Below the pieces are notes generated by a model. The model did not search any database and was not told the DNA's origin. It saw nothing but the letters and a program-made list of their open reading frames with translations. A stretch of 64,000 bases of DNA from NCBI GenBank assembly GCA_965277775.1, contig OZ255843.1, positions 455,451 to 519,450 of the forward strand. Direction: 5' to 3'. The stretch is from Gammaproteobacteria bacterium. GTDB taxonomy: Bacteria > Pseudomonadota > Gammaproteobacteria > CAKMZV01. Positions within the stretch are counted from its first letter, which is position 1, and every line of letters begins with the position of its first letter. Positions 1 to 57,114 of this stretch are shown here, one piece after another. The position numbers were made by a program, and so were the translations under genes.

Positions 1-28
1 TTGCTCATAAAAACTCCGAAAATTTATG

Positions 29-241
29 TTATTCTGCGATAGCACCTGCTACTCCCCAACATATAATCATTAGCACAAAATAGCCAATTGCTCCCAATAT
101 TTGAAAGTGTATGACGCTAGCTATCATAGCAAAGCAACTTGCTAACCCACCAAGACCAAATCCCCAGAGCCAAAACCATCTTTGAGTTATGAGAAATAGG
201 GCAATTAGTCCCACCACTATGCCTAAAATTATTATTTCCAT
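29..241 (-). CDS. hypothetical small membrane protein (integron cassette ORF, partial cassette at window edge)
   Basis: 70-aa ORF, hydrophobic throughout, followed at its 3' side by attC-like site 254-334; co-oriented with the other cassette ORFs. Confidence 0.35.
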   Translation of the reverse strand: MEIIILGIVVGLIALFLITQRWFWLWGFGLGGLASCFAMIASVIHFQILGAIGYFVLMIICWGVAGAIAE

Positions 242-253
242 TGTACTTAAACA

Positions 254-334
254 CCTAACGTTGAATTAAGCGGCTCGCATAGCGAGTCCGACGTAGGCCA
301 AAGGCCTTAGTGAACTTGAATTCCTTGTTATATT
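254..334 (-). repeat. attC recombination site (integron cassette boundary)
   Basis: plus strand CCTAACG...imperfect palindrome...CCTTGTTATATTGC; on minus strand reads R''(ATAACAAG)...R'(CGTTAGG); sits between two co-oriented ORFs. Confidence 0.6.
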
Positions 335-660
335 GCATCTCCATAGTAACATTGAATACTTTTGATTCTTAGTAGGTTTTCGCCACTCTCACTTTTTAAT
401 ACAGCGGCTTTATCATTAATCGTAATTATTTCATCGACTGTATTTACGCCAATTGGAATCCAAGCTGGATCGGAGCTTCTAGTGGCTTCAACATAAAGTA
501 GATTACCTTCGACTCTCCATATTCCATGGACAACAATGCCTAGTTCTTTACATTCAATATCGTTATAACCCACAAATATTAATGTGCCATCTCTCATGTA
601 AATTGAGTATCCTGGTAATGAACCAGTGTCGCGGGGATCAGACGACCAAGTACCTTTCAT
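328..660 (-). CDS. hypothetical protein (cassette ORF)
   Basis: 110-aa ORF bounded by attC sites. Confidence 0.45.
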   Translation of the reverse strand: MKGTWSSDPRDTGSLPGYSIYMRDGTLIFVGYNDIECKELGIVVHGIWRVEGNLLYVEATRSSDPAWIPIGVNTVDEIITINDKAAVLKSESGENLLRIKSIQCYYGDAI

Positions 661-789
661 TTGCTTAGCGAGTATATTTTATTCACTTTGTGAAATTTTC
701 TTAGCAGCGCAAGCTGAAAGCAACACGCATAATGCTATTAATATAGTTTTTTTTCATTTATTGAGTATCCTGTGCATTTTTTTATGCGA

Positions 790-860
790 TATAACGCCCA
801 CATTTGCGGCTAGTTTGGAGCGCAGCGGAAAACCAGTCCGACAACATGCGCTTGTTATGT
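790..860 (-). repeat. attC site
   Basis: ATAACGCCCACATTTGCGGCTAG...GCGCTTGTTATG; shares core with attC at 6924 and 7743. Confidence 0.65.
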
Positions 861-1658
861 TTTTACTGCACTATTCAAGGCTGTTATTGACTTTTTGGCT
901 TCTGCTAACTTTTTAGCTCTATTCAATTGCTCAAGTTTTTCATCCAGAATTATTTCAATGCCTACTTTCATCGCAGGGAATGCTGCTAAGCATTCTTTCT
1001 CATTTAGCTCGTGTATCCCTTTGCTTAATATTGAATAGATAGCACTATTTTCTACCAAAAACTCTGGTAGCTCAGATTGCAAGAGCTTAATCTTTTCATT
1101 CATTCTCGATTTTAAATACAAATCTTCATCCCAGCCATCTTGTACTTTGGCAATTGTATGAGACTCCTCTATTAGAAATTCGAAAATACGACGAAGATAA
1201 ACAAACGAACCTACGCCTATACCATGAGAAACAAGACCAATTGCTTTTGTAAATTCTTGGAAGTACTTTTCATCAAGAACCTTAGAGTACTTTTTTACAT
1301 CGAAATGATTGAGATCTGCAATAGATGGCATTTGCCCTATTTTTTGAATGGTTTTCCCACTAGCATGAAAGATAAAATGTAGCTTGTGGTCATTGTTTCT
1401 TGTGCATTTAAAATCTATTGAAAAAAATCCAGATTCGACCCACGAGTCTGCTTCATAATAAAATTCATTTGAGTTCTGCCAATAACGCTCAAAAATACTG
1501 TGCGTATTACAGTGGGGGCAATAAGAGTCAAGGGTATCACCAAAGTATCTTAACTTTCTTCCAAACTCCAAATCTTCATCAGCATAAGTTATCACCTCAT
1601 AGAGAGGTAATTCGATAAGAAATTGTTCTGGTGTTGGATAATTTTTACTTGTACTCAA
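855..1658 (-). CDS. hypothetical protein (cassette ORF, 267 aa)
   Basis: long ORF flanked by attC sites; no family recognised. Confidence 0.55.
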   Translation of the reverse strand: MSTSKNYPTPEQFLIELPLYEVITYADEDLEFGRKLRYFGDTLDSYCPHCNTHSIFERYWQNSNEFYYEADSWVESGFFSIDFKCTRNNDHKLHFIFHASGKTIQKIGQMPSIADLNHFDVKKYSKVLDEKYFQEFTKAIGLVSHGIGVGSFVYLRRIFEFLIEESHTIAKVQDGWDEDLYLKSRMNEKIKLLQSELPEFLVENSAIYSILSKGIHELNEKECLAAFPAMKVGIEIILDEKLEQLNRAKKLAEAKKSITALNSAVKT

Positions 1659-1674
1659 TTCTCTCTCCTAGAAA

Positions 1675-1755
1675 CATAACGCCTTGCGCAACGGCGAGCG
1701 CCGTAAGCGTTTGTCCAGCACGCGTAGCGTACGTATTGCCGCAACTTGTTATGTA
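1675..1755 (-). repeat. attC site
   Basis: ACATAACGCCTTGCGCAACGGCGAGCGCC...GCAACTTGTTATG; imperfect internal palindrome. Confidence 0.65.
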
Positions 1756-1766
1756 TTTTAATACAC

Positions 1767-2300
1767 TTATATAATATCGAACATTACATTATGGCTTTGC
1801 CATAAATTCTCAATTACATCTTTTTCTCGTAGCCCATCGGTGGATTTTTGAATATTCTGATTCGGTGTAATATCAACAAAGAGATATAAGATGAAGTCGA
1901 ATTCAGTACTATATAATAGACATTGCCCTAACCCACTTCTTAGCGCAGAGCCACCATCTCCTTTTTTGATTTCAATCCCTATTCTAAAGTCACCTAAGTC
2001 TAAGATTGCATCCGGTCTGTGGTTAGTACTAAATACCGTAAAATTATTTACAGTCGTTGTTAATTTCTGTTCCCATTGAAAATCAGTAACTAATTCTTTG
2101 CTTTTTTTATCATTTATCCCATATTTGATAAGGTATTCATCTAATTTTTCCTCTAGATATAAAAACAAATTCTTTTGTATTACATTTTCAGTATCACTAT
2201 TCCTAGAAACTTTTTTTGAAAACATACTATGATTTTTCATGCGCGACATAATAGATTCAAGTAATTCTACTCTCCTAACTGTTTTTTTCGCTAAACTCAT
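1767..2300 (-). CDS. hypothetical protein (cassette ORF, 177 aa)
   Basis: ORF between attC sites. Confidence 0.5.
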   Translation of the reverse strand: MSLAKKTVRRVELLESIMSRMKNHSMFSKKVSRNSDTENVIQKNLFLYLEEKLDEYLIKYGINDKKSKELVTDFQWEQKLTTTVNNFTVFSTNHRPDAILDLGDFRIGIEIKKGDGGSALRSGLGQCLLYSTEFDFILYLFVDITPNQNIQKSTDGLREKDVIENLWQSHNVMFDII

Positions 2301-2329
2301 ATTTTAATTCCTCATTAGTTCATTACTAA

Positions 2330-2370
2330 ACATAACGCCTAGCTCTGCGGTTTGTTAAGCTCTTGTTGTA
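2330..2370 (-). repeat. possible short/degenerate attC site
   Basis: CATAACGCCTAGCTCTGCGGTTTGTTAAGC; same end-boxes but only ~40 bp. Confidence 0.35.
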
Positions 2371-2956
2371 AAAAAGGAAAATCCAATTTATAACAATCAG
2401 ATACTCTCTTGTAAATATTATCATCACCTTCATCATGAGCAGCAAGAGTAAGGTAATAGTTCTTCCCTTCAAATTCTTGGAATACAATCCACTCACCAGT
2501 TATTTTATGATTGGCAGCTCGCTCCTTTAACATTCCAAAAGTTAACCCATTAACTATAAAACCAATAAATTCATCATCTACATACCCGGATGTATTCTGA
2601 TTTGATGCTCTCTCAATTAACTGATTTAGCTTTTTATTCCCGCCCCTCTCTAGCCCAAAGTGTGATCCCATATTTTTGACAATGAAACTTGCATCAGTAA
2701 AATGAGTTTTCTTCAGTCCCTTTAAAGGAAGTCTCTTAAATTCTTCTGCTTTCTTGGTTCTTGGCTGCCTTCCTAGACCTTCCAAGCATTTAATTTCATC
2801 CATAATTTGATCAGTATTTATTACCCGATTCCCTTGCATCTGCATAATTTGAACAATAAAAATACTACTAATTCTTGATATGTCTAAACCAAAGAAACCA
2901 ATATCTTTTTTGGTAAAATTCTCTAAATCAATTCTACTTAATGCGACTGATTGCAC
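2339..2956 (-). CDS. hypothetical protein (cassette ORF, 205 aa)
   Basis: ORF between attC-like sites. Confidence 0.5.
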   Translation of the reverse strand: MQSVALSRIDLENFTKKDIGFFGLDISRISSIFIVQIMQMQGNRVINTDQIMDEIKCLEGLGRQPRTKKAEEFKRLPLKGLKKTHFTDASFIVKNMGSHFGLERGGNKKLNQLIERASNQNTSGYVDDEFIGFIVNGLTFGMLKERAANHKITGEWIVFQEFEGKNYYLTLAAHDEGDDNIYKRVSDCYKLDFPFLQQELNKPQS

Positions 2957-2971
2957 GATCTATCCCTGAGC

Positions 2972-3027
2972 GTAACGCTAGAATCCAGCCGACGCGTTAG
3001 CGGTCGGCTGAAATGATATGTTAGGTG
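2972..3027 (-). repeat. attC site
   Basis: CGTAACGCTAGAATCCAGCCGACGCGTTAGCGGTCGGCTG...ATGTTAGG; palindromic GCCGAC/GTCGGC arms. Confidence 0.6.
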
Positions 3028-3168
3028 TAATTACACCTTTATTAATCACCTTTCTTGTGTTCGTGAGGTTTAAGTTTCCGTGTATTTCCCGGAGTATTTT
3101 TATTATCTCGTTGCCGCCTATCTGGCTTCCCAGTTGATTCAGCAATTCGTTTTGGACCTGGTTTAATT

Positions 3169-3195
3169 CCCATAGTTTCCATAGTTTCCATAGTT
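3169..3195. repeat. 3x tandem 9-bp repeat CCATAGTTT
   Basis: seen directly: cccatagtttccatagtttccatagtttt; lies in a small minus-strand ORF (MET-MET-MG...). Confidence 0.7.
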
Positions 3196-3252
3196 TTCTC
3201 CTATTAAAATTTAATTACTTATATATGGTTGAAATTGTATTTCTCAAGCGCA

Positions 3253-3501
3253 TTATCTATCCATTTCAAAAGTACGATATTCATCAGTATTGTAATCGTA
3301 ACTTTCTACTCCAACAGATGAACCATAACTATTTACCGACTCTACATCTCCATATTTATATTCACCTGTTCCATAATCATAATATTCAATTTCATTTCCC
3401 TGTCGAACAAGATTACCTTTATCAATTTCAACATAATTTCCTTTAGTGTAGTCGTATCCATCCCAAGCAGATACAGAATATGAAGCAATTAACAAAATCA
3501 C
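3253..3501 (-). CDS. small secreted Tyr/Asp/Gly-rich protein (cassette ORF)
   Basis: 82-aa ORF with N-terminal signal-like segment; low-complexity YDYxxG repeats. Confidence 0.35.
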   Translation of the reverse strand: MILLIASYSVSAWDGYDYTKGNYVEIDKGNLVRQGNEIEYYDYGTGEYKYGDVESVNSYGSSVGVESYDYNTDEYRTFEMDR

Positions 3502-3574
3502 CGATAATATTATTTTGATTCTTTCTCCTATAATTTTTCAAGTTTTAGAAAAAATAGTGAGATGTGAAGGAGAC

Positions 3575-3634
3575 TCCTAACGCTTAAACTCAACGGCGGC
3601 GGAACGCCTTCCGCTGGAGTGCCTTGTTAGGCGT
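3575..3634 (-). repeat. attC site
   Basis: CCTAACGCTTAAACTCAACGGCGGCGGAACGCCTTCCGCTGGAGTGCCTTGTTAGGC. Confidence 0.65.
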
Positions 3635-4391
3635 AGTGTTCTCGGCGATGGCAATTGGGACATAAGGCAATAGCATTTTCCACCGTGTCTTCACCGCCAT
3701 CGGCAAGTCGTTTTTTATGATGCACTTCAAGATAAGGACTTCCGTCAGAACGCCGAGTAAACGGTGCTGGGCACTTACAGAGCTCACAAACACCTTGGGC
3801 TCGTTCGAGGACTTCAACAACTACATTTGCGTTTCGCAAGAATACCGTTGTGTAAACTTTAACCATTCTTGGAATTCGTGGAGCTCTTGTAAGCTGCACC
3901 TTCCGCTCTTCGGAACTTCGCTTTTTTGCCTGTTGAATGGACTTCTCAAAATCCTTATCATGGGAAACGAGGTTAGGCTGAGGAGAGCGTGAATTTTTGA
4001 TATGTTGTTCAAATATTGAATATGATTCAAGACTAAATTTTGTTTTTGCATTACTAAAACTATCATTCTTGAATTTCTCTGGGCATAGTTCTACAAACAC
4101 TTCTGGGCCAATAGGGTCAAAGACTTTGATTGAATCAACATCAAATCGTAAAAAATCTTCGCCCTGTTCTTCAAAAATAGCACTCGCAATGATCTCGTTG
4201 TTGTACTGGAATAAAATGACCGTACCGGGTTTTGCATTGAGCCCTTTTTTACCAATGACGTATTTGCCACCTCTTGATGGTAAGTACTCCATAAAAAACT
4301 GCAATTGAACAATATTGTATGATTTTCCTTGAAACTCAGAATTATCAGTGCTCATCGGTAAAATTTGAAATTCTATATTTCTATCTGTCAT
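3627..4391 (-). CDS. HNH endonuclease domain protein (cassette ORF, 254 aa)
   Basis: C-terminal CxxC...HH...N...CxxCH pattern (CELCKC...LEVHHKKRLADGG...ALCPNCHRREH), typical of HNH nucleases. Confidence 0.6.
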   Translation of the reverse strand: MTDRNIEFQILPMSTDNSEFQGKSYNIVQLQFFMEYLPSRGGKYVIGKKGLNAKPGTVILFQYNNEIIASAIFEEQGEDFLRFDVDSIKVFDPIGPEVFVELCPEKFKNDSFSNAKTKFSLESYSIFEQHIKNSRSPQPNLVSHDKDFEKSIQQAKKRSSEERKVQLTRAPRIPRMVKVYTTVFLRNANVVVEVLERAQGVCELCKCPAPFTRRSDGSPYLEVHHKKRLADGGEDTVENAIALCPNCHRREHYA

Positions 4392-4410
4392 GTAAAACTC
4401 GTTATCTATG

Positions 4411-4482
4411 CCTAACGCCTAGCTCACCAGAAAAATGCGAGCACAGCGAGTATTTTGTCCGGTGGAGCTACTTGTTAGGAGT
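4411..4482 (-). repeat. attC site
   Basis: CCTAACGCCTAGCTCACCAG...GGTGGAGCTACTTGTTAGGAG. Confidence 0.6.
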
Positions 4483-4584
4483 AATTATTGCTCAAGTATT
4501 TGAACAGCCATTCTCTTTCTATTTCCGTTACTGATTTTGCCAATTCGAGTCTGTCTGTTCCCTGCGTCGCTTTGCCTGTGATTG

Positions 4585-5232
4585 TTATGTTTTTGGTGAT
4601 TTCTTAGCCACGACAAAATAGCTAGATGCGTCTTTATAGATCTCTTCGGACTCAATTGATTGAAATCCGCCAATTTCTAATAAATCTTCTACTTCAGAGC
4701 TTGTAATTCTTCTTATTGGTATGGGAATTAATCCAAGTTTACATAAGACCCGTACCAGCTGGATTTGAAGATTAACTAAAAATGACATCCTTTGACGCAA
4801 GCAAGGTGTAACGGAAATGAATAAACCATCTGGCTTTAGTAATTCATTTATTCGTAGCATGACATCCTGTGGACTAGGGACTGTATGCAACATATTAAAA
4901 GCCAGGATGACATCATAGGATTCATTAGAATATTTGCTGTCAAAAATATCTGATTGCTCAAATCTTACATTTTCAACTTTCGTAGCCTCCGCTTTCTCCC
5001 TCGCAATTTCAATCATCTTCGATGATATATCAATAGCGTGAACTTCTTTAACTTGACTGGAAAACTGACACGCGGCAGTTCCTGTTCCGCACCCATAATC
5101 GAGAATGGTATCGCTACACTTTAGGAATCTTTTGGTGTTTTCCCTAGACCTACTGTGAATGTACTCAAAACGTTCTTCGGTCTTGTCGTAGTTTTTGGAC
5201 GCTCCGTCCCAAAAATCTTCCGATTTATTCAT
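4585..5232 (-). CDS. class I SAM-dependent methyltransferase (cassette ORF)
   Basis: motif I ILDYGCGTG and post-I acidic residue; 215 aa. Confidence 0.7.
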   Translation of the reverse strand: MNKSEDFWDGASKNYDKTEERFEYIHSRSRENTKRFLKCSDTILDYGCGTGTAACQFSSQVKEVHAIDISSKMIEIAREKAEATKVENVRFEQSDIFDSKYSNESYDVILAFNMLHTVPSPQDVMLRINELLKPDGLFISVTPCLRQRMSFLVNLQIQLVRVLCKLGLIPIPIRRITSSEVEDLLEIGGFQSIESEEIYKDASSYFVVAKKSPKT

Positions 5233-5255
5233 ATTCTACTCCTTAATGGGGGAAA

Positions 5256-5336
5256 CATAACGCCTCAAAAATGGGCCAGAGCACGCAGTGCGGAGATCCA
5301 GCCTCGAAGGGGCGACATTGATTGACTTGTTATAAG
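5256..5336 (-). repeat. attC site
   Basis: CATAACGCCTCAAAAATGGGCCAGAGCACGCAGTGCGG...GACTTGTTATAAG. Confidence 0.6.
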
Positions 5337-5339
5337 CCA

Positions 5340-5900
5340 CTATGGGGCCTGCACCCAGCCAATATTTTTATCTTTTACTGGGTCAATAATTGGAAATATG
5401 TCGTCCTGAGTAAAAGGCTCAGCATCTTGGCCTATACCAAACAGTAGATAATTTTCTCCATCACTCAGGACTTTGTAGTAGAAATCACGTTGCTGCCCAC
5501 CAATATTCAATGGGCCAGACATATCAAAGGAGAATACCATTTCACCTTCCTTCAAGTTCTCTCGAAGGGCGGCCATTGATTCAGGGTAAGCTCCGTGCTG
5601 AAGTTTGTAGTATTCAATTTGCCTTACTATGGAAGTCATAGCACTTACAGCGTGAACTTCAAAACCCTTTGAAAATTCATTATCGTTGAAAGCCTTGTAG
5701 AACAGTGAGCCATAAAGAACAACGCTGAATATTATTCCAGCGAAGCCCAAGCCACCAAGAAGCTTCGAGTTTGATTTTTTACCAACGACAGCGACGACAA
5801 TACAGATGATACCGAAAAAGATTCCGATGAGTGGGATGAAAGACAAGCCAGATAATACAAAAGCTCCAACGCCATGTTTTTTCTTTTCTTCAGTATTCAC
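5340..5900 (-). CDS. hypothetical membrane-anchored protein (cassette ORF, 186 aa)
   Basis: two N-terminal TM segments, soluble C-terminal domain. Confidence 0.5.
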   Translation of the reverse strand: MNTEEKKKHGVGAFVLSGLSFIPLIGIFFGIICIVVAVVGKKSNSKLLGGLGFAGIIFSVVLYGSLFYKAFNDNEFSKGFEVHAVSAMTSIVRQIEYYKLQHGAYPESMAALRENLKEGEMVFSFDMSGPLNIGGQQRDFYYKVLSDGENYLLFGIGQDAEPFTQDDIFPIIDPVKDKNIGWVQAP

Positions 5901-5916
5901 TACTCCTCCTAATGCA

Positions 5917-5975
5917 TATAACGATCAAACTCAGCGGCAGCGATTAGCCGTCCGTTGGAGTGCTTTGTTAGCCAA
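5917..5975 (-). repeat. attC site
   Basis: TATAACGATCAAACTCAGCGGCAGCGATTAGCCGTCCGTTGGAGTGCTTTGTTAGCC. Confidence 0.6.
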
Positions 5976-5994
5976 GATTTTTTTTATGAGTCCA

Positions 5995-6897
5995 TTAAAC
6001 TTCCCAGTGTTTCTTCCAGTCTCCTTTAACTCTTAAATCTGTTTGGCTAGCTTCTTCAACTAGTTTACAAACTAACAATTCCGCTGCACTACCACCATAA
6101 TTGTTCTTGGCTTTCTCAAATTTTTCACGGGCTAATAATGTCATATCCATTTGTACGCCGTTTTCTTTTCCTAATTCACTTAGTAAACGCAAGTCTTTGC
6201 AACATAAATCTAAAGAAAAAGAAGGATCATAGTGTCCATCAAAAATGGATGGCACATCGTGACGAACAACAAATGTGTCGCCCACACTATTTTTTAGAGC
6301 CTCCCAAAGTACGAGTAAATCAACACCAGCTTTCTTACCTAATATCAATGCTTCTCCAATAGCTGACGCATTAATAAACCATATTTGATTAGTTACCAAT
6401 TTCGTTATATTGCCTGTACCTAAAGAGCCACACTCAATTATTTTGCCCATTATTTCAAGATAAGGTCTAACATTATTGATAACCGTTTTTTCACCGCCAA
6501 CAAAAAAAGTGAGTCTTCTTAATCGAGCACCATCAACAGCACCTGTGACGGGAGCCTCTACAACTGAAACGCCTTTTGTAAGTGCTAGTTTTTCTAATTG
6601 TAATAATAACTCTCGGTCATTGGTTGTTAGATCAACCCAGGTACTACCGCTTTGCATAACATCAAGCAATGAAGGAAGGGCTTTTTCAACATGATGGGGT
6701 TCTGGGAAAGAGGTAAATAACACATCTACATTCTTGGCTACATCTATTCCATTTTTTCCAATTTTGGCTCCATACTGAGTGACTGGGGAAATTTTATTTT
6801 CGTCTAAATCATACACAGTGATATCGCACCCAGCTTTTGCTAAGTTAATAGCCATTGGCGCACCCATATTTCCCAATCCAATATATCCAATTTTCAT
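5995..6897 (-). CDS. NAD(P)-dependent oxidoreductase, 3-hydroxyisobutyrate/6-phosphogluconate dehydrogenase-like family (cassette ORF)
   Basis: N-terminal MKIGYIGLGNMG Rossmann motif, 300 aa. Confidence 0.75.
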   Translation of the reverse strand: MKIGYIGLGNMGAPMAINLAKAGCDITVYDLDENKISPVTQYGAKIGKNGIDVAKNVDVLFTSFPEPHHVEKALPSLLDVMQSGSTWVDLTTNDRELLLQLEKLALTKGVSVVEAPVTGAVDGARLRRLTFFVGGEKTVINNVRPYLEIMGKIIECGSLGTGNITKLVTNQIWFINASAIGEALILGKKAGVDLLVLWEALKNSVGDTFVVRHDVPSIFDGHYDPSFSLDLCCKDLRLLSELGKENGVQMDMTLLAREKFEKAKNNYGGSAAELLVCKLVEEASQTDLRVKGDWKKHWEV

Positions 6898-6923
6898 TTT
6901 TTATCCTCGTTAATATTTTTGGG

Positions 6924-6994
6924 CTAACGCCCGCATTTGCGGCTGAGGAAAGCGCAGCTTTCCGAAGTCCGACTGCATGCGTTTTTGTTATGCG
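6924..6994 (-). repeat. attC site
   Basis: CTAACGCCCGCATTTGCGGCTGAGGAAAGCGCAGC...GTTTTTGTTATGC. Confidence 0.65.
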
Positions 6995-7746
6995 TCATTG
7001 TAAATTACTGGCATTTTGCCTCTCCACACATTCCACAAATCGGAGTCTGTGGCTAAATTAGCCATGAAATTCGAGACGTTAATGCGACTTGTTGGAGCTG
7101 AATCGAAAATTGCATTTCTCGTTGGGGAAGTGTGAGTCTTATATTTAGACACTTCCTTTTCATTTGTAAGACTATCGGGTCTTACAGCAACCCATTCAAT
7201 AAACTGGTGATCTTGACCAATGCAAGTCCGGAGAAAATCAGCCGCTTGCTCGTTATCTACATGCGGCGGAAGCAACAATCGCAATACTGATATTACAAGT
7301 TTCTGTGATAGCGGAGGTTTTTCTGGAATATCACGATTACTGTTACCTGTTGTGTTCATCAGGATAATTTTAATCTTCTTGTCTGGCTCTAGAGATTCAA
7401 TAGCTCTAGACACTTTTTTAATTGTATCGGCGACCAATCGCCTGGGTTCTCCAAACATTCCCTTGAAAGTCAAATTGTGGCCTAAGCAGGAAAGCACAAC
7501 ATCACAACCTTTTAGAGCAAGCATCAAATCCTGTTCTGACATTTCCGTAATGCTGGCTGGTATTTCACGATAGTTCGATTGGTTTGCAAATATGTTTACT
7601 AAAGAGCTAGCGGCTCGAACGACAGCTACAACCTCTGTATTTCGTTGGAGTAAATCCGCAACAAGCAGCTTACCTGTGGCACCACTTGCTCCCAATACTA
7701 GTACTTTCTTCATATTACGTCCTTGGTTGATGCATAACGCCCGCAT
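6988..7746 (-). CDS. NAD(P)H-binding protein, NmrA/atypical SDR-like (cassette ORF)
   Basis: KKVLVLGASGATGKLLV glycine-rich Rossmann motif; 252 aa. Confidence 0.65.
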   Translation of the reverse strand: MRALCINQGRNMKKVLVLGASGATGKLLVADLLQRNTEVVAVVRAASSLVNIFANQSNYREIPASITEMSEQDLMLALKGCDVVLSCLGHNLTFKGMFGEPRRLVADTIKKVSRAIESLEPDKKIKIILMNTTGNSNRDIPEKPPLSQKLVISVLRLLLPPHVDNEQAADFLRTCIGQDHQFIEWVAVRPDSLTNEKEVSKYKTHTSPTRNAIFDSAPTSRINVSNFMANLATDSDLWNVWRGKMPVIYNDA

Positions 7747-7802
7747 TTGCGGCTGGTTTGGAACGCAGGGGAATATTTGTCCGACAGCAGCGCTTTGTTA
7801 TA
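7743..7802 (-). repeat. attC site
   Basis: CATAACGCCCGCATTTGCGGCTGGTTTGGAACGCAGGG...GCTTTGTTATAGC. Confidence 0.65.
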
Positions 7803-7811
7803 GCTTTTTTC

Positions 7812-9161
7812 TCAGACATTTAGCTCAACAACTGTGTTTTCTATGTCATTGTACTCTTCACAGATTACACAAACCTCAATAGCAATCTTGCCCTCTATCA
7901 GAGGAACTACCATATATTCGTCATCGAACGTCATGCGTCTCGTATGGAGCAGGTTATTGATCTTTATAGTAATTTTACTTCCTTCCAATCTAGTCCACCA
8001 TGGTTGATTTATAGAGCGGATTTTCGGTAAATTATACTCGGGGTGAACTCCTCTTGAAAGCCCCATCAATTCATTTCCTAGGCCTAACAGAGATTGCAAA
8101 TCTGATATCGTAGTAGCATTCTCGTTAAATTTTTCTGCGTATTTAGTTTGAGCACGTTTTATTGGATTAATTGGGATCGGGTTTTTCGGCTCACTATGAT
8201 TTTCACCTATTTTGTAGATAAGAACCCCTTCTGGAAACTCGATATCTACATAGACATTGTTTGCTTTAGCAGAACCGTTATTGGCAATCTCTATGACTAA
8301 CGTAGAGGAATAATTTATAATCTTATAAAACCTTTCACACTCCTTGTTGAAATCATCTAAATCCTGCTGGCTAGGGATCGAGTTGTTGTATTTTTCAACG
8401 TCTTGTTCTGAAACAAACTCTAGCAGGTGCTCCTCAATACCCTCGAATCTCAATGACTCTGGCATTTCAGTCATCTTATAGGAATTGAAGTCCTCATCAA
8501 TAGCCGGAGGTGCTATATCAACGTCAATAACTGGAAGCTTTGATGATATCTTTGACTCAAGATCTGTCACTCTTTCTCTTAGCTCTCTATTCTCCTTGCT
8601 GAGAGCCGTCAATTCCTTAGAAAGAGCTTCCTCAGCACGAGCCTTATCTCCTCTAACCCATCCTATGCCAGGCTTTTGCATAATCTGTTTCATTAATGAA
8701 ATAGAAACACTTATTATAAGCTGATCTTTCGTTTCCCAAAACTGCGCCATTTTAAAGTTTGTTAAAACTAACTCTCGAAATTTTTTTATTTCTGAGAGAT
8801 CATCATCCCACTTGTCCTTTGACAAGGACACGGTGTCTTTCATCACAAATGCAAGGATCGGTATATTTTTCTCTAGCGCATACTCATATTCCTTTTGAGT
8901 AAAACTAATCCCTTCAGATGTTTTTGAACCATACCTCATACCTAAAACAAGAACGTAGTAATCGCTCACCTCTATGGTTCTTCTAATTATTTCCCACTGA
9001 TCCTCATCTTCAGCACTGAACATCTCCATGCCGATGGGTATATGGTACATCTCCAAGATAGCCTTGATGATACTTTCCCGTTCATCTACTAAATCAGAGT
9101 AAGTTGAGCTTAAGAAAACTTGATACTTTGTTGATTTCAAGACTACTCCTGGATATTTCAA
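7812..9161 (-). CDS. DUF4062-like (TIR/nucleoside-deoxyribosyltransferase-like fold) N-terminal domain protein with coiled coil and unknown C-terminal domain (cassette ORF, 449 aa)
   Basis: N-terminus VFLSSTYSDLVDERESIIKAIL...IPIGMEMF...YVLVLGMRYG...IPILAF recalls DUF4062; central heptad-rich stretch; domain call from memory. Confidence 0.5.
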   Translation of the reverse strand: MKYPGVVLKSTKYQVFLSSTYSDLVDERESIIKAILEMYHIPIGMEMFSAEDEDQWEIIRRTIEVSDYYVLVLGMRYGSKTSEGISFTQKEYEYALEKNIPILAFVMKDTVSLSKDKWDDDLSEIKKFRELVLTNFKMAQFWETKDQLIISVSISLMKQIMQKPGIGWVRGDKARAEEALSKELTALSKENRELRERVTDLESKISSKLPVIDVDIAPPAIDEDFNSYKMTEMPESLRFEGIEEHLLEFVSEQDVEKYNNSIPSQQDLDDFNKECERFYKIINYSSTLVIEIANNGSAKANNVYVDIEFPEGVLIYKIGENHSEPKNPIPINPIKRAQTKYAEKFNENATTISDLQSLLGLGNELMGLSRGVHPEYNLPKIRSINQPWWTRLEGSKITIKINNLLHTRRMTFDDEYMVVPLIEGKIAIEVCVICEEYNDIENTVVELNV

Positions 9162-9168
9162 CGATAGA

Positions 9169-9224
9169 TATAACGCCGCCTTCAGCCGTGCGCCTTTGCA
9201 TCGGCTGGAAGGCTTTGTTATAAC
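9169..9224 (-). repeat. attC site
   Basis: TATAACGCCGCCTTCAGCCGTGCGCCTTTGCATCGGCTGGAAGGCTTTGTTATAACC. Confidence 0.6.
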
Positions 9225-9793
9225 CGATTTTGGTAAACACTCGCTATTTTTTTATTGATTTCTGTGGCTATTACTTGTGCTTTTATCATTGTGCATTGAA
9301 CTGTTTTCCAATTGTTCCAGTGTTGTTGCCAAATTTCTGTACCTACAATTTTTTCGAAGTCTACTTTAGTAGGTGTTCCCCAGCTCTCATAAGCTCGAAG
9401 TTTGATTATACGTTGCGCTAAATCAGGGATTTTCTTGGATTTTGGGGATAGTTTGGCATCACTATTAATCCAGGTCTCCCAAGCTTTGTTACCTTTTGAC
9501 TGGTTGCACTTTCCACAAGCAGGCACAAGGTTGTGGATTTCAGAAACATAACCAGTCGGTTTCTTGTCTTTAACTAATGGCCGCAAGTGATCCCATTCAG
9601 TAGCAGAAGAACCACAGTAAGAGCACTGAAATGTATCGCGATTCATTCCTAGGATTTCTAGAGCAGTTTTAACCTCACCATCATTAGGTTCAATCACTGG
9701 AATAATTGAGTTTATGAAGGAGTTTGTAATGCTTGATGATCTCCCAGTGATTTTCATCGGAGTAGGCATTTTGAATAATGTTAAATAATTCAT
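9218..9793 (-). CDS. HNH endonuclease (cassette ORF, 191 aa)
   Basis: CSYCG...WDHLRP...HNLVPACGKCNQSKG: Cys4/His HNH signature. Confidence 0.6.
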   Translation of the reverse strand: MNYLTLFKMPTPMKITGRSSSITNSFINSIIPVIEPNDGEVKTALEILGMNRDTFQCSYCGSSATEWDHLRPLVKDKKPTGYVSEIHNLVPACGKCNQSKGNKAWETWINSDAKLSPKSKKIPDLAQRIIKLRAYESWGTPTKVDFEKIVGTEIWQQHWNNWKTVQCTMIKAQVIATEINKKIASVYQNRL

Positions 9794-9827
9794 AAGTTAA
9801 CGATACTGCTGGTTGAACTCGATTAGG

Positions 9828-9896
9828 TTATAACGACTAAACTCAGCCGACCGAAACCGCTTGCGGTTTTGGGTCGGCTGGAGTGCCTTGTTATGT
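9828..9896 (-). repeat. attC site
   Basis: TTATAACGACTAAACTCAGCCGACCGAAACCGCTTGCGGTTTTGGGTCGGCTGGAGTGCCTTGTTATG; long palindromic arms. Confidence 0.65.
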
Positions 9897-10307
9897 GTTT
9901 TTCTCGTAATAAACGGGTTCATTATTGTCATAAATAGCCTTTTCTAAAACACGCTTTATTTCATCTTTTTGATTTTCATCTATGAATAGATGACCACTTT
10001 GACCAGGAAAAACTTTATTATTTAATCTATCTAGCATATGAATAATTTTAATGTCATTAACCTTATGACCTTCTGTGTACTTGTCATCCCTTTCTTTACA
10101 AGTATTTCTTTCTCCACAAAACATTGCTTTGGCTACAATGTAACTATCATATGCAAAATATATTGTATCTTCTGATTTTAGTTTATCTCCGATTTTTACA
10201 GTAGCATAAAAGAAATTATTATCTCTCGAAGTTAATAAATGCCTAAAAAACTCCTTCGTTTCTTTAATATCACCATCTGAGCTATCCATCCTAAACAGAA
10301 CATCCAT
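9891..10307 (-). CDS. hypothetical protein (last cassette ORF, 138 aa)
   Basis: ORF downstream of nothing recognisable, followed by attC 9828-9896. Confidence 0.45.
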   Translation of the reverse strand: MDVLFRMDSSDGDIKETKEFFRHLLTSRDNNFFYATVKIGDKLKSEDTIYFAYDSYIVAKAMFCGERNTCKERDDKYTEGHKVNDIKIIHMLDRLNNKVFPGQSGHLFIDENQKDEIKRVLEKAIYDNNEPVYYEKNT

Positions 10308-10731
10308 AGTTAACCTCCTTATGTATTTTATAACCCACCAGATTGATCAGGTGTGTTAGCTTTCTTTGCCTTTGAAACTTCGTATGCTTGATATAATTTT
10401 CTCATAATTGCTTCTGCCCGATGAGTATATCAGATTTCAATTTCTGCATTTGGTTCTACATCAAAAATTGAAACTAGCGATGAATCTCCTTTATCATAGT
10501 TAAACTGCCCATCTTTTTTTATCATCACTAATCCTCCAATAGTTGCCGTGCGGATAATTTGATGATTTAACACTCGAATATTTTTTTGTAAGTAGTGAGA
10601 AAATTTCCAAATACTTTCCAGTTAATAAGGGCGATTTTGATTTTAGAATTACTTCTGTTATTTTAAGGGAGGGATGAGAGGACGTTCAACTGCTCAACGA
10701 CCAACGCGAGTTAGAGCAACAGCAAAAATGA

Positions 10732-11247
10732 CTATCGCTTCGGGGTATAAAATGGGTTATAGGCATTTGCTTGGGCATTTGCCACCTCTTGTTTGGATGG
10801 CTTTCCAGTCAGAGCTTTTGTTATTGCTTTGGCGATGCATTGACGGTTGTTATCATAGACCAAGTCTAAATCAGTCACTTTAGGATTGACCCAGACGCAG
10901 GCCACAATGCACCAGTTTTCAAACATGTCATCAGTAATGACGCCCTCTTCCACAAGGTCTTGTATGCCTCTGGCTAAACCTGCTTGAGCTGCGCCCCAAG
11001 TTGCATCACCATGTTTGTCAGAGGTGATTTCAGCCTTGGTGGCAAATAAGGTGTCTGGCTTTACTGAGATGCCTGGTTGATGAATGGCCATGAATGGAAT
11101 ATAGCCTTGTCTGGGGGCGGCCATTGCATTGAGCAATGCTTGTCCTACAGCACTCGATTTTGGTCCAAATAGTGCGTTTATGTGCGCAGCGTTGAAGTTT
11201 CCTGCGCCGTCTTCTCCAACAAATGATTCTCCAATGTAAATACTCAT
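10732..11247 (-). CDS. fae: formaldehyde-activating enzyme (5,6,7,8-tetrahydromethanopterin hydro-lyase)
   Basis: 171 aa; strong similarity by memory to Fae (MSIYIGE...GDGAGNF..AHI...FGPK...). Confidence 0.8.
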   Translation of the reverse strand: MSIYIGESFVGEDGAGNFNAAHINALFGPKSSAVGQALLNAMAAPRQGYIPFMAIHQPGISVKPDTLFATKAEITSDKHGDATWGAAQAGLARGIQDLVEEGVITDDMFENWCIVACVWVNPKVTDLDLVYDNNRQCIAKAITKALTGKPSKQEVANAQANAYNPFYTPKR

Positions 11248-15658: not shown

Positions 15659-16198
15659 CTAAAAGGGCTGAGTACCAATCACTTTATAGCCTTGATCATC
15701 TTGCGCCATCAGCGCAATGGCTTGCGCTTCAAAAGTCAATTCAAACGCCACTTCTGGCGCTGAAGAAGCTGGTATGTCATCAGCCAATAATACGTGGGGT
15801 ATAAAATAATTAGGCTTGACTTCATAGTCCAAAGCCAAGATGGCAGATTTAATTGCACTCTGCCACTGCCTCAGCGCATCAGATGCTTGTCCTGAAAGGG
15901 CATAGCCTTGACTATCTGCAGAAGAAAAAGCAGAAAACTTTGACAAAGAAATCTTAGGCGTGGGTGAAAATTTGATGGTCTGAAGTAGGCCCAAGAAGTT
16001 TTTCTCGCCGCGTTTGGTAATGTCGCCAATGGCGTTTAAGGTGATGTACCAATTTTCAGGCGGGCGGCACAGCGCTGGATCACTCATGTGTTTTGATAAC
16101 GCATTGGTAATCTCATTTTTAACCGCTTCAGGTAGCAACAATGCCAAGAAGGCGTTTGAATGAATGATGGGTCCTGTATCTGCTGGAATATCGGTCAT
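15659..16198 (-). CDS. hypothetical protein (possible degenerate 2H-phosphoesterase-like)
   Basis: 179-aa ORF; weak resemblance only. Confidence 0.4.
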   Translation of the reverse strand: MTDIPADTGPIIHSNAFLALLLPEAVKNEITNALSKHMSDPALCRPPENWYITLNAIGDITKRGEKNFLGLLQTIKFSPTPKISLSKFSAFSSADSQGYALSGQASDALRQWQSAIKSAILALDYEVKPNYFIPHVLLADDIPASSAPEVAFELTFEAQAIALMAQDDQGYKVIGTQPF

Positions 16199-51965: not shown

Positions 51966-51967
51966 AA

Positions 51968-52291
51968 ATGGGCAGAATACTGGTACTGTTTGACCTACCG
52001 GTTAATACAGCGAAAGAGCGTAAAATTGCGTCAAAATTCCGAAAGGACATGCTTAACGATGGCTACATCATGCTCCAGTTCTCAGTCTATATGAGAACTT
52101 TTGTCTCGTGGGAGCGCATGAAAAAGCACGCCAAACGCCTCGCCCTTATGGCCCCCAATGGAGGCAACATAAGGATTTTTTTCATTACCGAAAAACAATG
52201 GCTTAAGTCCATAAGCATTGACGACATGGCGTATAAGCAAAAAAAGCAAATACGAACCCCACATCAATTGGATCTATTTACCATCTGGTAA
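51968..52291 (+). CDS. cas2: CRISPR-associated endoribonuclease Cas2
   Basis: MGRILVLFDLP...GYIMLQFSVYMR; ATG 51968 is 2 nt after cas1 stop; frame is open from 51944. Confidence 0.85.
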   Translation: MGRILVLFDLPVNTAKERKIASKFRKDMLNDGYIMLQFSVYMRTFVSWERMKKHAKRLALMAPNGGNIRIFFITEKQWLKSISIDDMAYKQKKQIRTPHQLDLFTIW

Positions 52292-57111: not shown

Positions 57112-57114
57112 TCC

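What the first reader, a model, noticed from the sequence alone, without database searches (positions are those of the whole stretch)
1..10360. Chromosomal integron-type cassette array of at least 14 cassettes, with no integrase where the orientation predicts one
From the window start to ~10.3 kb, every intergenic gap between co-oriented minus-strand ORFs of unrelated function contains a 55-85 bp element with the same boxes. On the plus strand it reads YTAACGCC at the start and TTGTTAKG at the end, which on the minus strand is R'' ATAACAA ... R' GGCGTTAKG. Between the boxes is an imperfect GC-rich palindrome. This matches the attC structure, and the end-boxes are close to those of Vibrio VCRs. 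Several sites share the core AACGCCCGCATTTGCGGCTG, at 790, 6924 and 7743, which is the family-like homogeneity typical of sedentary chromosomal integrons. With cassettes on the minus strand, intI and attI should lie just right of the last cassette, at 10.3-10.7 kb. That interval is 400 bp of non-coding, fragment-like sequence, followed by fae transcribed toward the array. So this is either a CALIN (a cluster of attC sites lacking an integron-integrase), an array separated from its intI by rearrangement, or the integrase lies beyond the window's left edge in an unusual orientation.
Basis: partly seen in the sequence, partly recalled or inferred. Interest (0 to 1): 0.8.

Follow-up and report, generated by a model that had tools for sequence, protein, structure and literature searches.

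The report
Integron cassette array without integrase
A run of about 15 small mobile gene cassettes, each ending in an integron recombination site, sits just downstream of a housekeeping methylotrophy gene with no integrase gene nearby; this is a known kind of element (a CALIN), notable mainly because its cassette content differs between closely related strains living together.

Summary
A covariance model built only from attC sites of integrase-linked integrons in other genera finds 13 sites in the window. All are on one strand, within 253-9897, one behind each minus-strand ORF or ORF pair, and none lies in the other 54 kb. The sites fold as attC bottom strands, show compensatory changes, and mostly carry an extrahelical G. 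No integron integrase, intact or decayed, exists in the 64-kb window or in 147 kb from five sister-strain arrangements. One of those is a complete 2.1-Mb genome in which the whole interval plus 10 kb on each side was read. By definition this is a CALIN, a common, described class.

- The variable array starts about 67 nt after the fae stop (window ~10665), not at 10360.
- The sites are heterogeneous (mean identity 55%), not SCI-like.
- The shared core belongs to an attC family found in over 100 species.

New here: five sister arrangements plus the window carry different cassette sets between the same flanks (fae and tRNA-Ser). Several junctions fall exactly at the attC G|TT crossover, so an integrase has worked on this array, probably in trans. 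Other sites have been damaged by imprecise deletions. Several cassettes look like defence genes. Whether an intI exists elsewhere in the genome could not be determined.

The parts
253..334 (-). attC site (76-nt core 256-331), downstream of the 110-aa ORF cassette
   Evidence: CM R1 35.6 bits, E 1.2e-7; DNA fold z -3.2 with R-box stem, spacer and bulged stem
789..861 (-). attC site (67 nt) of the pan-generic 66-67-nt family, 2 mismatches from its consensus; follows the 267-aa ORF
   Evidence: CM 58.6 bits, E 3e-14; family found in >100 species
1674..1755 (-). attC site (76 nt), follows the 177-aa ORF
   Evidence: CM 50.4 bits; canonical fold
2330..2361 (-). attC stub: R' and R'' boxes retained, stem and loop deleted; the stop codon of ORF 2339-2956 lies inside it
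   Evidence: CM 20.1 bits, E 3e-3; does not fold; same stub in sister strain L001
2970..3027 (-). attC site (52 nt)
   Evidence: CM 19.3 bits, E 6e-3; inner stem z -3.1
3575..3633 (-). attC site (53 nt), follows the HNH/type IV restriction-like 254-aa ORF
   Evidence: CM 29.8 bits
4410..4481 (-). attC site (66 nt); belongs to a 170-aa-ORF cassette of which only the 3' end remains in the window
   Evidence: CM 56 bits; window 4445-4563 = L124 16644-16762 at 97.5%
4479..4591 (-). Scar of an imprecise deletion: 4563-4591 is the first ~29 nt of the methyltransferase cassette's attC, joined at 4563 to the 3' end of the 170-aa ORF that is intact in the sister genome
   Evidence: Alignment with L124 15510-15640 and 16560-16800; no CM hit, no fold
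5255..5336 (-). attC site (76 nt), follows the 186-aa ORF
   Evidence: CM 35.9 bits
5916..5974 (-). attC site (53 nt), follows the NAD_binding_2 300-aa ORF
   Evidence: CM 21.5 bits, E 1.3e-3
6922..6994 (-). attC site (67 nt), chimeric: the R''/L'' arm matches the NAD_binding_10 cassette attC of strain L123, the rest matches the 67-nt family
   Evidence: CM 22.6 bits; alignment case A
7732..7804 (-). attC site (67 nt) of the 67-nt family with a damaged 5' arm; follows the DUF4062 449-aa ORF
   Evidence: CM 35.5 bits against 58 for the intact family member; alignment case C
9168..9224 (-). attC site (51 nt), follows the HNH 191-aa ORF; textbook fold with two bulged bases on the 3' arm of the bottom strand
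   Evidence: CM 37.3 bits; fold -16.2 kcal/mol, z -4.7
9828..9897 (-). attC site (64 nt) of the first full cassette (138-aa ORF)
   Evidence: CM 31.8 bits; fold z -5.5 with bulged G
10328..10360 (-). Mini-palindrome TAAC-ACACC...GGTGG-GTTA: probable attC stub ending the 330-nt proximal segment; its GTTATAA box marks the start of the 138-aa cassette
   Evidence: Read from sequence; below CM threshold
10334..10664 (-). Strain-variable proximal segment with two tiny ORFs (25 and 31-47 aa); present in the window and L123, replaced by another cassette in L124/L125
   Evidence: Alignment A5; no Pfam hits; no intI similarity
10665..10731 (-). Conserved chromosomal flank between the fae stop and the array (ends ...CATCCCTCCCTT); contains a partial REP-like element at 10691-10723
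   Evidence: Identical breakpoint in four strains; REP-like family in L001
10732..11247 (-). fae (formaldehyde-activating enzyme), co-oriented with all cassettes and transcribed toward them
   Evidence: PF08714 E 5e-45; no terminator-like site between fae and the first cassette on that strand
29..10307 (-). Cassette ORFs, all on the minus strand: 29-241 (70 aa), 328-660 (110), 855-1658 (267), 1767-2300 (177), 2339-2956 (205), ~3040-3192 (~50), 3253-3501 (DUF5334), 3627-4391 (HNH, type IV mREase-like), 4585-5232 (SAM methyltransferase), 5340-5900 (186), 5995-6897 (NAD_binding_2), 6988-7746 (NAD_binding_10), 7812-9161 (DUF4062), 9218-9793 (HNH, PtuB-like), 9891-10307 (138)
   Evidence: ORF list; Pfam; PADLOC; GC 36-40% against 42-47% in the flank

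Best explanation
This is a chromosomal cluster of integron gene cassettes without an adjacent integron integrase (a CALIN). Each cassette is a mostly promoterless ORF (or ORF pair) followed by an attC site, an imperfect palindrome whose bottom strand folds into the hairpin that integron integrases recognise. The array fills a variable slot between two conserved chromosomal flanks. It starts about 67 nt after the stop codon of fae and runs, co-oriented with fae, toward a tRNA-Ser(GGA) gene and a conserved 190-aa ORF.

Shown: the sites are attC sites; no intI or intI remnant lies in the window or in the same slot (plus 10 kb each side) of sister strains; and the cassette content of the slot differs between strains.

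Inferred (about 0.55): because several strain differences have junctions exactly at the attC G|TT crossover, cassettes were inserted and excised here by an integron integrase acting in trans. That integrase could be encoded elsewhere in the genome or brought in transiently. At the same time, individual attC sites are being destroyed by imprecise deletions such as slippage, so the window strain's copy is partly eroded.

Inferred (about 0.5): with no Pc promoter, the proximal cassettes are transcribed by read-through from fae.

Several cassettes probably serve phage defence.
For: attC identity:
- Surrogate attC covariance model from 18 intI-linked sites of 7 loci in other genera gives 13 hits, one strand, only in 253-9897.
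- 89% of cells pair in the model structure against 33-53% when partners are slid, all 7 inner-stem pairs show compensatory changes, and 0/500 shuffles reach the covariation score.
- Bulge on the 3' arm of the bottom strand is G in 7 of 12 sites.
- Canonical folds.
- The same site type lies in complete integrons with TIGR02249 integrases at 382-430 bits, in the predicted orientation.

No integrase:
- tblastn with 10 IntI and an IntI HMM over six-frame translations of window plus L001 gives best E 0.065 and 0.3.
- Pfam/NCBIfam of window ORFs show housekeeping genes, CRISPR-Cas and no recombinase.
- The IntI HMM over 131 kb of sister and relative loci gives best E 0.25, and over L129 a biased 8-bit hit at E 0.03.
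- No PF00589 appears among called genes.

Same slot, different content:
- Flanks are 94.5-95% identical, and the flank breakpoint is identical at window 10665.
- The fae-to-190-aa-ORF interval is ~3, 10.8 and 13.7 kb in three strains.
- The cassette order map shows a shared F2-F3-F4 block and 21 strain-unique ORFs.

Precise junctions: the NAD_binding_2 cassette starts at GCG|TTAGCC in three strains behind three unrelated attC sites, and the ydhR attC end is also precise.

Imprecise events: window 4563, the chimeric 6922-6994 site, the 2330-2361 stub, and a half attC in L124 after the 170-aa ORF.

Literature: the CALIN definition and frequencies, and trans-mobilisation of CALIN cassettes proposed as a possibility (PMC4889954); attC loss by replication slippage (bioRxiv 10.1101/2022.09.11.507474).

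Defence-type cassettes: type IV mREase, PtuB-like HNH, PDC-S35 TIR, HEC-05/GmrSD; ApeA-HEPN, NB-ARC, and AAA_15 with DUF4435 in sister arrays.
Against: - IntegronFinder's own attC model and the intI_Cterm profile were not available, so the model used is a surrogate. Its training sites were picked with a regex for the same end boxes.
- The pair counts come from an alignment fitted to the model.
- The source chromosome outside the window could not be read, so an intI elsewhere, or even in the unseen stretch left of the window, is not excluded. The source genome's left part differs from L001.
- The proximal junction lacks the G at -1 expected of an attI or attG product (bioRxiv 10.1101/2022.09.11.507474 section 33).
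- R' boxes are so conserved that 'precise' junctions are resolved only to within about 3-7 nt.
- Some shared cassettes carry different attC interiors in different strains, which integrase action alone does not explain.
- Read-through from fae is untested.
Confidence: 0.8

Rival explanations
1. Split integron: the array once had its own intI-attI-Pc module at the fae-proximal end, and a rearrangement moved that module elsewhere on the same chromosome. From there it still services the array.
For: Attested for CALINs in general: about half lie in replicons that encode IntI, and rearrangement is one of four proposed origins (PMC4889954, read). Precise G|TT junction polymorphisms show integrase action on this array.
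Against: All strains share the same flank breakpoint 67 nt after fae and the same distal flank, so any rearrangement predates their divergence. No IS, transposase or intI fragment lies at either border. The IntI profile search listed no hit on contigs of 2,064,107, 2,106,115 or 2,083,442 bp, but only 120 of 7,975 hits were shown, so that result is inconclusive.
Confidence: 0.2
2. Fossil array: the integrase was lost long ago and nothing recombines the sites any more. Strain differences come from homologous recombination between similar attC arms, exchange of whole segments by transformation through the conserved flanks, and slippage deletions.
For: Several events are clearly not integrase products: the deletion at window 4563, chimeric attC 6922-6994, stubs at 2330-2361 and 10328-10360, a half attC in L124, and the same ORF with the same attC arms but a different loop in the window and L123. 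Window and L001 keep identical cassette order over 4.3 kb at 96.4% identity. The attG preprint (bioRxiv 10.1101/2022.09.11.507474) states that folded attC sites are easily deleted by replication slippage. Note that PMC12614218 shows transformation-driven cassette recruitment in V. cholerae that still uses the integrase, so it does not itself show an integrase-free route.
Against: The same cassette start (GCG|TTAGCC) lies behind three unrelated attC sites in three strains, and 21 strain-unique ORFs are each followed by their own attC. That is hard to produce by homology-driven events alone. New cassettes had to be inserted somewhere by an integrase.
Confidence: 0.25
3. Secondary-site origin: the array never had its own integrase. 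A cassette was inserted by a foreign or distant integrase at a genomic (attG-like) site just behind the strongly expressed fae gene, and later cassettes were added by attC x attC recombination.
For: Position 67 nt downstream of fae, co-oriented, with no predicted terminator between. Strain divergence starts at one fixed flank nucleotide. Insertion outside att sites and expression from host promoters have been demonstrated experimentally (bioRxiv 10.1101/2022.09.11.507474). The 84%-Fae relative L122 has no array at this position.
Against: The flank reads ...CCCTCCC|TTA..., with C (or A) rather than G at -1, so it does not match the G|WT consensus of attG sites. This model does not explain why the very first cassette differs between strains right at the flank.
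Confidence: 0.2
4. Not integron-related: a REP/MITE or terminator-hairpin family that happens to sit between genes.
For: The elements are palindromic, intergenic and GC-rich relative to their surroundings. A real REP-like family does exist in this lineage (L001 5760-5960, 8458-8510, 10838-10890; partial copy at window 10691-10723).
Against: There are no copies in 54 kb of adjacent chromosome or outside the slot in about 147 kb of sister loci. The same site type sits next to integron integrases in many genera. The features are attC-specific: AAC/GTT boxes, a bulged G, covariation, strict co-orientation and one site per ORF. The true REP-like family looks different and scores only E 0.2 with the model.
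Confidence: 0.02

Closest known systems
CALIN (cluster of attC sites lacking integron-integrase; Cury et al. 2016, PMC4889954)
   Same: At least 2 attC sites on one strand, no intI within 4 kb or 10 kb, and no intI pseudogene nearby (true of 95% of CALINs). Cassettes are mostly of unknown function and none resemble resistance genes.
   Different: It is larger than most: 13 sites in the window plus more to the left, while only 6.6% of CALINs have more than 10. It sits in a ~2.06-Mb genome, and integron elements are commonest at 4-6 Mb. Here there is also strain-level evidence of recent cassette turnover at a fixed chromosomal slot.
Sedentary chromosomal integrons such as the Vibrio cholerae superintegron
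   Same: Chromosomal, at the same locus in all strains seen. Many cassettes of unknown or defence function. Similar TAAC...GTTA end boxes. Strain-to-strain cassette variation.
   Different: There is no intI, attI or Pc. There are fewer than 19 sites. The attC sites are heterogeneous (mean 55% identity) rather than one homogeneous repeat family.
Genome-inserted cassettes at attG sites / SALIN (Loot et al., bioRxiv 10.1101/2022.09.11.507474)
   Same: Cassettes lie outside an integron platform, directly downstream of a host gene that could drive their expression. attC decay by slippage is expected.
   Different: This is an array of many cassettes rather than a single one, and the junction lacks the G|WT crossover consensus.
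Mobile integrons (classes 1-5)
   Same: Heterogeneous attC sites drawn from several sources, and a moderate number of cassettes.
   Different: No integrase, no transposon or plasmid context, and no resistance genes. The commonest attC family here is absent from mobilizable plasmids in PLSDB.
Defence-gene cassettes in integrons (bioRxiv 10.1101/2024.07.02.601686 and 10.1101/2024.07.02.601719)
   Same: Cassettes match defence families: type IV restriction HNH, PtuB-like HNH, TIR PDC-S35, ApeA-HEPN, NB-ARC, and AAA_15 with DUF4435.
   Different: Matches are by profile only, none was tested, and the array lacks the integrase that those studies' integrons have.

Membership tests
attC recombination sites (integron cassettes) | Imperfect palindrome R''-L''-loop-L'-R' with conserved AAC (R'') and GTT (R') triplets, 50-150 nt | tested here: met
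   12 full sites of 51-76 nt read TAACG...YTGTTA on the bottom strand; the TAAC/GTTA pairs are invariant in 13/13
attC recombination sites (integron cassettes) | Structure conserved rather than sequence: compensatory changes in the stem | tested here: met
   All 7 inner-stem pairs have changes on both sides; 89% paired against 33-53% slid; 0/500 shuffles reach the score. Caveat: the alignment was fitted to the model. The independent reference set shows the same.
attC recombination sites (integron cassettes) | Extrahelical base(s) on the R''/L'' arm (3' arm of the folded bottom strand), typically a G | tested here: met
   Single-base bulges on the 3' arm in MFE folds; the model's bulge column is G in 7, C in 4 and A in 1 of 12 sites
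attC recombination sites (integron cassettes) | Accepted by the IntegronFinder attC covariance model | not testable with these tools
   The model is not in Rfam or the tools. A surrogate CM from 18 intI-linked sites of other genera accepts 13 sites at E 3e-14 to 6e-3 and nothing else in the window.
attC recombination sites (integron cassettes) | One site at the 3' end of each cassette, all in one orientation, ORFs co-oriented | tested here: met
   All 13 sites are on the + strand and all cassette ORFs on the - strand, with each site within about 0-30 nt of an ORF stop
attC recombination sites (integron cassettes) | Recombined by an integron integrase | not testable with these tools
   Indirect only: cassette presence/absence junctions fall at G|TT between strains
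Complete integron | intI (tyrosine recombinase with the IntI-specific domain; TIGR02249) within 4 kb of the attC cluster | tested here: not met
   tblastn/HMM with 10 IntI give best E 0.065/0.3 over window plus L001. None found in about 147 kb of sister loci. The stretch left of the window in the source genome itself was not seen.
Complete integron | attI site and Pc promoter next to intI | not testable with these tools
   attI sites are integrase-specific and unknown here. The flank ends CCCTCCCTT(A), with no G|TT. Promoter-like matches near the junction are at background level.
CALIN | At least two attC sites clustered on one strand | tested here: met
   13 sites in 9.6 kb with a largest gap of about 1.4 kb
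CALIN | No intI within the clustering distance (4 kb; also checked at 10 kb) and no intI pseudogene | tested here: met
   Right side: 53 kb of window without intI. Left side: sister strains only.
Sedentary chromosomal integron (criteria of PMC4889954) | Present in all genomes of the species, or more than 19 attC sites; homogeneous attC sites | tested here: inconclusive
   An array occupies the same slot in every strain variant seen (the window plus five sister arrangements). But there are fewer than 19 sites, attC identity averages 55%, and no intI is present.
REP / MITE family | Many copies dispersed through intergenic regions genome-wide | tested here: not met
   No hit better than E~1 in window 10-64 kb. 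In sister loci all hits lie inside the fae-tRNA slot or at its edge. The whole chromosome was not available.

The most novel reading that the evidence does not exclude
These ~2.1-Mb genomes may contain no integron integrase at all, yet this slot is the most variable locus among co-occurring strains and shows attC-precise junctions. The array would then be a stripped-down integron platform. It would use a host gene (fae) as its promoter and a non-canonical junction (CCCTCCC|TTA, no G|TT) as its docking site. Its cassettes would be exchanged by transient foreign integrases or by transformation and recombination within the population, while enclosing a conserved tRNA-Ser gene between attC sites.
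Probability: 0.15. Interest if true: 0.6.

Novelty: new member of a known kind. Interest (0 to 1): 0.35.

Why it matters
CALINs are as common as complete integrons, but their origin and activity are poorly understood. Here one slot can be compared across at least five closely related strain variants, four of them in a single long-read metagenome. That makes it possible to ask directly whether an integrase-less array is a fossil or still trades cassettes. The mixture seen here, attC-precise cassette differences alongside slippage-type attC damage, suggests both processes run in parallel. The cassettes also add candidate compact defence genes. As an individual find, though, it fits established categories and does not change how integrons are thought to work.

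Tried and rejected
1. Reading the source chromosome. Exact-protein look-ups for window proteins (70-aa ORF, Fae, 138-aa cassette, MsrQ-like, P0001) returned 'not on record'. The source genome appears to be masked, so the left flank had to be inferred from sister strains.
2. Finding an intI elsewhere in the genome through its contig-length fingerprint. The IntI profile search gave 7,975 hits with only 120 listed, none on contigs of 2,064,107, 2,106,115 or 2,083,442 bp. This is inconclusive.
4. The 31-33-bp match between the window's right border (10691-10723) and L001's left border looked like a target duplication or att repeat. It turned out to be a separate REP-like palindromic family.
5. Weak clustered tblastn hits of IntI to window 15931-16156 fall in a LigT-like 2'-5' RNA ligase ORF, not a recombinase.
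6. The weak model hit at L001 8460-8516 (E 0.2) is the REP-like element, not an attC.
7. A shared-cassette search between the window and 120 integron loci of other species found only partial homologues, so there is no evidence for recent transfer of whole cassettes.
8. Unconstrained MFE folding does not return the attC shape for four sites (790, 3576, 5917, 7733). The covariation analysis was used instead.

Full report
**1. What is in the sequence**

From the window start to about 10.3 kb, all substantial ORFs lie on the minus strand. Nearly every gap between them holds an element that reads TAACG...YTGTTA on the plus strand and has a GC-rich imperfect palindrome inside. TAACGCC occurs 16 times against 5.3 expected. 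The 20-mer AACGCCCGCATTTGCGGCTG occurs at 793 (two mismatches), 6926 and 7736. A regex scan of both strands finds GC-rich instances only between 256 and 9894; matches elsewhere are AT-rich chance hits. The array region has 36-40% GC, against 42-47% in the rest of the window.

**2. Are they attC sites?**

I did not have IntegronFinder's model, so I built an independent surrogate.

Most are marine Gammaproteobacteria, but the list also includes Desulfobacterota, Chloroflexota, Verrucomicrobiota and Bacillota.
- In ten of those 8-kb loci the one recurrent large ORF family is an integron integrase. Five members were tested and all match TIGR02249 at 382-430 bits against a cutoff of 265.
- I aligned eighteen sites from seven of these integrase-linked loci, none from the window. 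RNAalifold gave a 6-bp R-box, a 3-nt spacer and a 7-bp stem interrupted by one extrahelical base on the 3' arm. Compensatory changes occur in 8 of 13 pairs.
- The covariance model built from them, run with filters off on both strands, finds 13 sites in the window. All are on the plus strand within 253-9897, with E from 3e-14 to 6e-3. The best hit in the remaining 54 kb has E 1.1.
- Across the window's own sites, 89% of cells pair in the model structure, against 33-53% when partners are slid. All seven inner-stem pairs show changes on both sides (the alignment is fitted to the model).
- The bulge column holds G in 7 of 12 sites.
- Folded as single-stranded DNA, the plus strand (the bottom strand, given the cassette orientation) mostly gives the expected shape: terminal stem, spacer, bulged stem and variable loop. 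Four sites do not return this as the unconstrained minimum.

**3. The sites are heterogeneous**

Mean pairwise identity is 55%, with a range of 30-84%. There are two small sub-families:

- 789/6922/7732
- 3575/5916/9828/2970

Yet it follows unrelated ORFs, with 84 of 109 upstream ORFs being singletons. In PLSDB it occurs only on three large non-mobilizable replicons of Pseudoalteromonas and Salinivibrio. This is not the array-specific homogeneity of a large sedentary integron.

**4. Where an integrase should be, and is not**

In nine complete integrons carrying this site type, the sites read TAACG...TTGTTA on the strand where intI lies downstream, and intI is encoded on that strand. For the window that predicts intI on the plus strand just right of the array. 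Instead the window has fae (minus strand, 10732-11247), a Zn-dependent alcohol dehydrogenase, MsrQ/MsrP-like genes and an MFS transporter. Core genes follow: eno, kdsA, pyrG, ubiA, rsmH, folD, mdh and cox. A type II CRISPR-Cas locus comes after those.

tblastn with ten IntI proteins, and an IntI HMM over all six-frame fragments of at least 20 aa, find nothing in the window or L001 (best E 0.065 and 0.3). A small cluster of weak hits at 15.9-16.2 kb lies in a LigT-like ORF.

**5. Sister strains**

The source chromosome (2,064,107 bp) could not be read outside the window. Exact-sequence cluster look-ups led instead to sister strains from two long-read metagenome assemblies. Six further loci were retrieved:

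- L001: a 113-kb contig, 96.4% identical to window 1-4283.
- L123 and L128: a 49-kb contig.
- L124 and L126: a circular 2,106,115-bp genome.
- L125 and L127: a 2,083,442-bp genome linearised inside the array.
- L129: a 16-kb contig.

Every contig that reaches the fae side shows ...eno-ftsB-ligT-MFS-msrP-msrQ-adh-fae upstream of the array. Every contig that reaches the distal side shows tRNA-Ser(GGA), an attC in most, a 190-aa ORF, amine oxidase, an EcoO109I-type R-M pair and a GH3 gene. L128 and L129 gave no separate tRNA or attC confirmation at that spot.

The source genome encodes relatives at 90% identity or more of the 190-aa ORF, the amine oxidase and the restriction enzyme, so it has the same distal flank. 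The interval from the fae stop to the 190-aa ORF is about 3 kb, 10.8 kb and 13.7 kb in the three strains where both ends are on one record.

None of the called genes carries a tyrosine-recombinase domain. The IntI HMM finds nothing in 131 kb of these loci, and only a biased 8-bit match in L129. In the complete sister genome this covers 10 kb upstream of fae, the whole array and 10 kb beyond the distal flank. By the published definition (at least two attC sites, no intI nearby; PMC4889954) the element is a CALIN in every strain seen.

**6. The proximal boundary**

Aligning the junctions of four strains shows that the conserved flank ends at ...CATCCCTCCCTT (window ~10665), about 67 nt after the fae stop. 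From that nucleotide on:

- The window and L123 carry a 330-nt segment with two tiny ORFs. It ends in a 33-nt TAAC...GTTA mini-palindrome (10328-10360), probably an attC stub.
- L124 and L125 carry an unrelated first cassette.

So 10334-10664 belongs to the variable array. The junction has C (or A) rather than G before the TT. It therefore matches neither the G|TT of attI/attC products nor the G|WT consensus of genomic attG sites. I leave this unexplained.

A more distant relative (Fae 84% identical, L122) has an IclR regulator and a TRAP transporter after fae and no array.

**7. Evidence for integrase action and for decay**

The cassette order map shows a block shared by four strain variants: NAD_binding_2 300 aa, a 186-aa ORF (99 aa in L129) and a methyltransferase of 215 aa, followed in three of them by ydhR. 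Different cassettes lie on both sides of this block, and 21 ORFs occur in a single strain only. Each is followed by its own attC.

Evidence for site-specific events:

- The NAD_binding_2 cassette begins at GCG|TTAGCC in the window, L123 and L124, although the attC and cassette upstream are unrelated in the three (cases A and D).
- The shared block in L123 and L124 ends at the last bases of the ydhR attC.

These are the junctions that site-specific recombination at the R' box produces. They are resolved only to within a few nucleotides, because R' boxes are conserved.

Evidence for other, imprecise events:

- Window 4563 joins the first ~29 nt of the methyltransferase attC to the 3' end of a 170-aa ORF that is intact in L124.
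- The attC at 6922-6994 is a chimera.
- 7732-7804 has a damaged arm (35 bits against 58 for the intact family member).
- 2330-2361 is a stub.
- L124 has its own half attC after the 170-aa ORF.

The attG preprint notes that folded attC sites are easily deleted by replication slippage (bioRxiv 10.1101/2022.09.11.507474).

My reading is that an integrase has worked on this slot since the strains diverged, most simply in trans, while sites erode. The alternative is homology-driven exchange and transformation only. That remains possible, but it does not easily generate new single-cassette insertions with attC-precise ends.

**8. Function of the cassettes**

Most cassettes have no family match. Those that do include:

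- Two HNH nucleases, one matching type IV methyl-directed restriction enzymes and one matching PtuB-like models.
- A SAM methyltransferase.
- Two NAD-binding dehydrogenase-like proteins.
- DUF4062 and DUF5334.

Sister arrays add a TIR protein (PDC-S35), ApeA-HEPN, NB-ARC-TPR, AAA_15 with DUF4435, RelA_SpoT, and a reverse-oriented GmrSD/HEC-05 gene without its own attC. This agrees with recent reports that integron cassettes often encode defence systems (bioRxiv 10.1101/2024.07.02.601686 and 10.1101/2024.07.02.601719). None of these functions was tested here.

All cassettes are co-oriented with fae, and no terminator-like site lies between fae and the first cassette. Read-through expression is therefore plausible but not shown.

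**9. Comparison and verdict**

The element meets every testable defining feature of attC sites and of a CALIN. It fails the defining feature of a complete integron, an adjacent intI. It does not meet the size or homogeneity marks of a sedentary chromosomal integron, although it is fixed at one locus.

CALINs are common: 279 against 164 complete integrons in 2,484 genomes. Of these, 95% lack a nearby intI pseudogene and about half lie in replicons with an intI elsewhere. Only 6.6% have more than 10 sites, and integron elements are rarer in small genomes (PMC4889954).

This is a new, rather large member of a known kind. The strain comparison is the most useful part. The one decisive unknown is whether these 2.1-Mb genomes encode an integron integrase anywhere.

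Noticed in passing
window 47828-57113: Type II CRISPR-Cas locus: a Cas9-like 1093-aa ORF (HNH_4, RuvC_III), type II Cas1 (51081-51965), and a CRISPR array of about 70 repeats (36-nt repeat ATTATACTCTGCTGGAAAAACGGGGGGGATCAAAAC, period 66) from ~52413 to ~57113.
   Followed up: partly
window 57655-62906: Two large ORFs (403 aa and 1332 aa) directly after the CRISPR array have no Pfam or NCBIfam match.
   Followed up: partly
window 789-861; loci L002-L121: A 66-67-nt attC (TAACAAGCGCATGTTGTCGGACTGGTTTTCCGCTGCGCTCCAAACCAGCCGCAAATGCGGGCGTTA) is nearly invariant (0-3 mismatches in 89 of 123 occurrences) across more than 100 species of several phyla, yet follows unrelated ORFs (84 of 109 singletons). 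In PLSDB it is found only on three large non-mobilizable marine replicons. Which lineage generates these cassettes is unknown.
   Followed up: partly
L126 9146-9971; L127 1894-2719; L001 5432-8678: The conserved tRNA-Ser(GGA) gene lies between two good attC sites in these sister strains, formally inside an attC-bounded unit and in reverse orientation to the cassettes.
   Followed up: partly
L001 5760-5960, 8458-8510, 10838-10890; window 10691-10723: A separate REP-like palindromic family (TACCAGCGCTTTGCGCTGTTCA...) forms three tandem 71-bp units at the distal end of L001's array and has a partial copy just after the fae stop in the window. It is absent from the rest of the window.
   Followed up: yes
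L001 6227-8008; L128 7498-9342; L129 11374-13155: A GmrSD/HEC-05-type gene sits in reverse orientation, with no attC of its own, between the last cassette and tRNA-Ser in three of five sister arrangements. No relative at 90% identity or more is on record in the source genome.
   Followed up: partly
L001, L123/L128, L124/L126, L129 (all sample ERZ26858995): Four different versions of the array coexist in one metagenome sample, at 41x, 64x, 142x and 82x coverage. The slot is therefore a microdiversity hotspot within a single population.
   Followed up: partly
window ~10663-10666: All strains diverge from exactly the same flank nucleotide (...CCCTCCCTT|), but the base before TT is not G. The junction fits neither the attI/attC rule nor the attG crossover rule.
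   Followed up: partly
window 2339-2956 and 2330-2361: The 205-aa ORF reads into the attC stub and terminates inside it. Several other cassette ORFs use the TAA of the R'' box (ATAACAA) as their stop codon.
   Followed up: no
L124 16220-16732 and L126 11746-12075: A 170-aa cassette ORF inside the array clusters (at least 70% identity) with a 109-aa ORF in the distal region beyond tRNA-Ser. That region also varies between strains (the 183-aa and 109-aa ORFs are absent in L001 and L129), so the variable zone may extend past the tRNA.
   Followed up: no
left of window position 1 (source genome, unseen): The source genome encodes a 147-aa protein (P0192) at least 90% identical to a distal cassette ORF of L129 that is not in the window. 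It has no relatives on record at 90% identity or more for L001's DUF2188 and TIR cassette proteins. Its array therefore continues left of the window with content unlike L001.
   Followed up: partly
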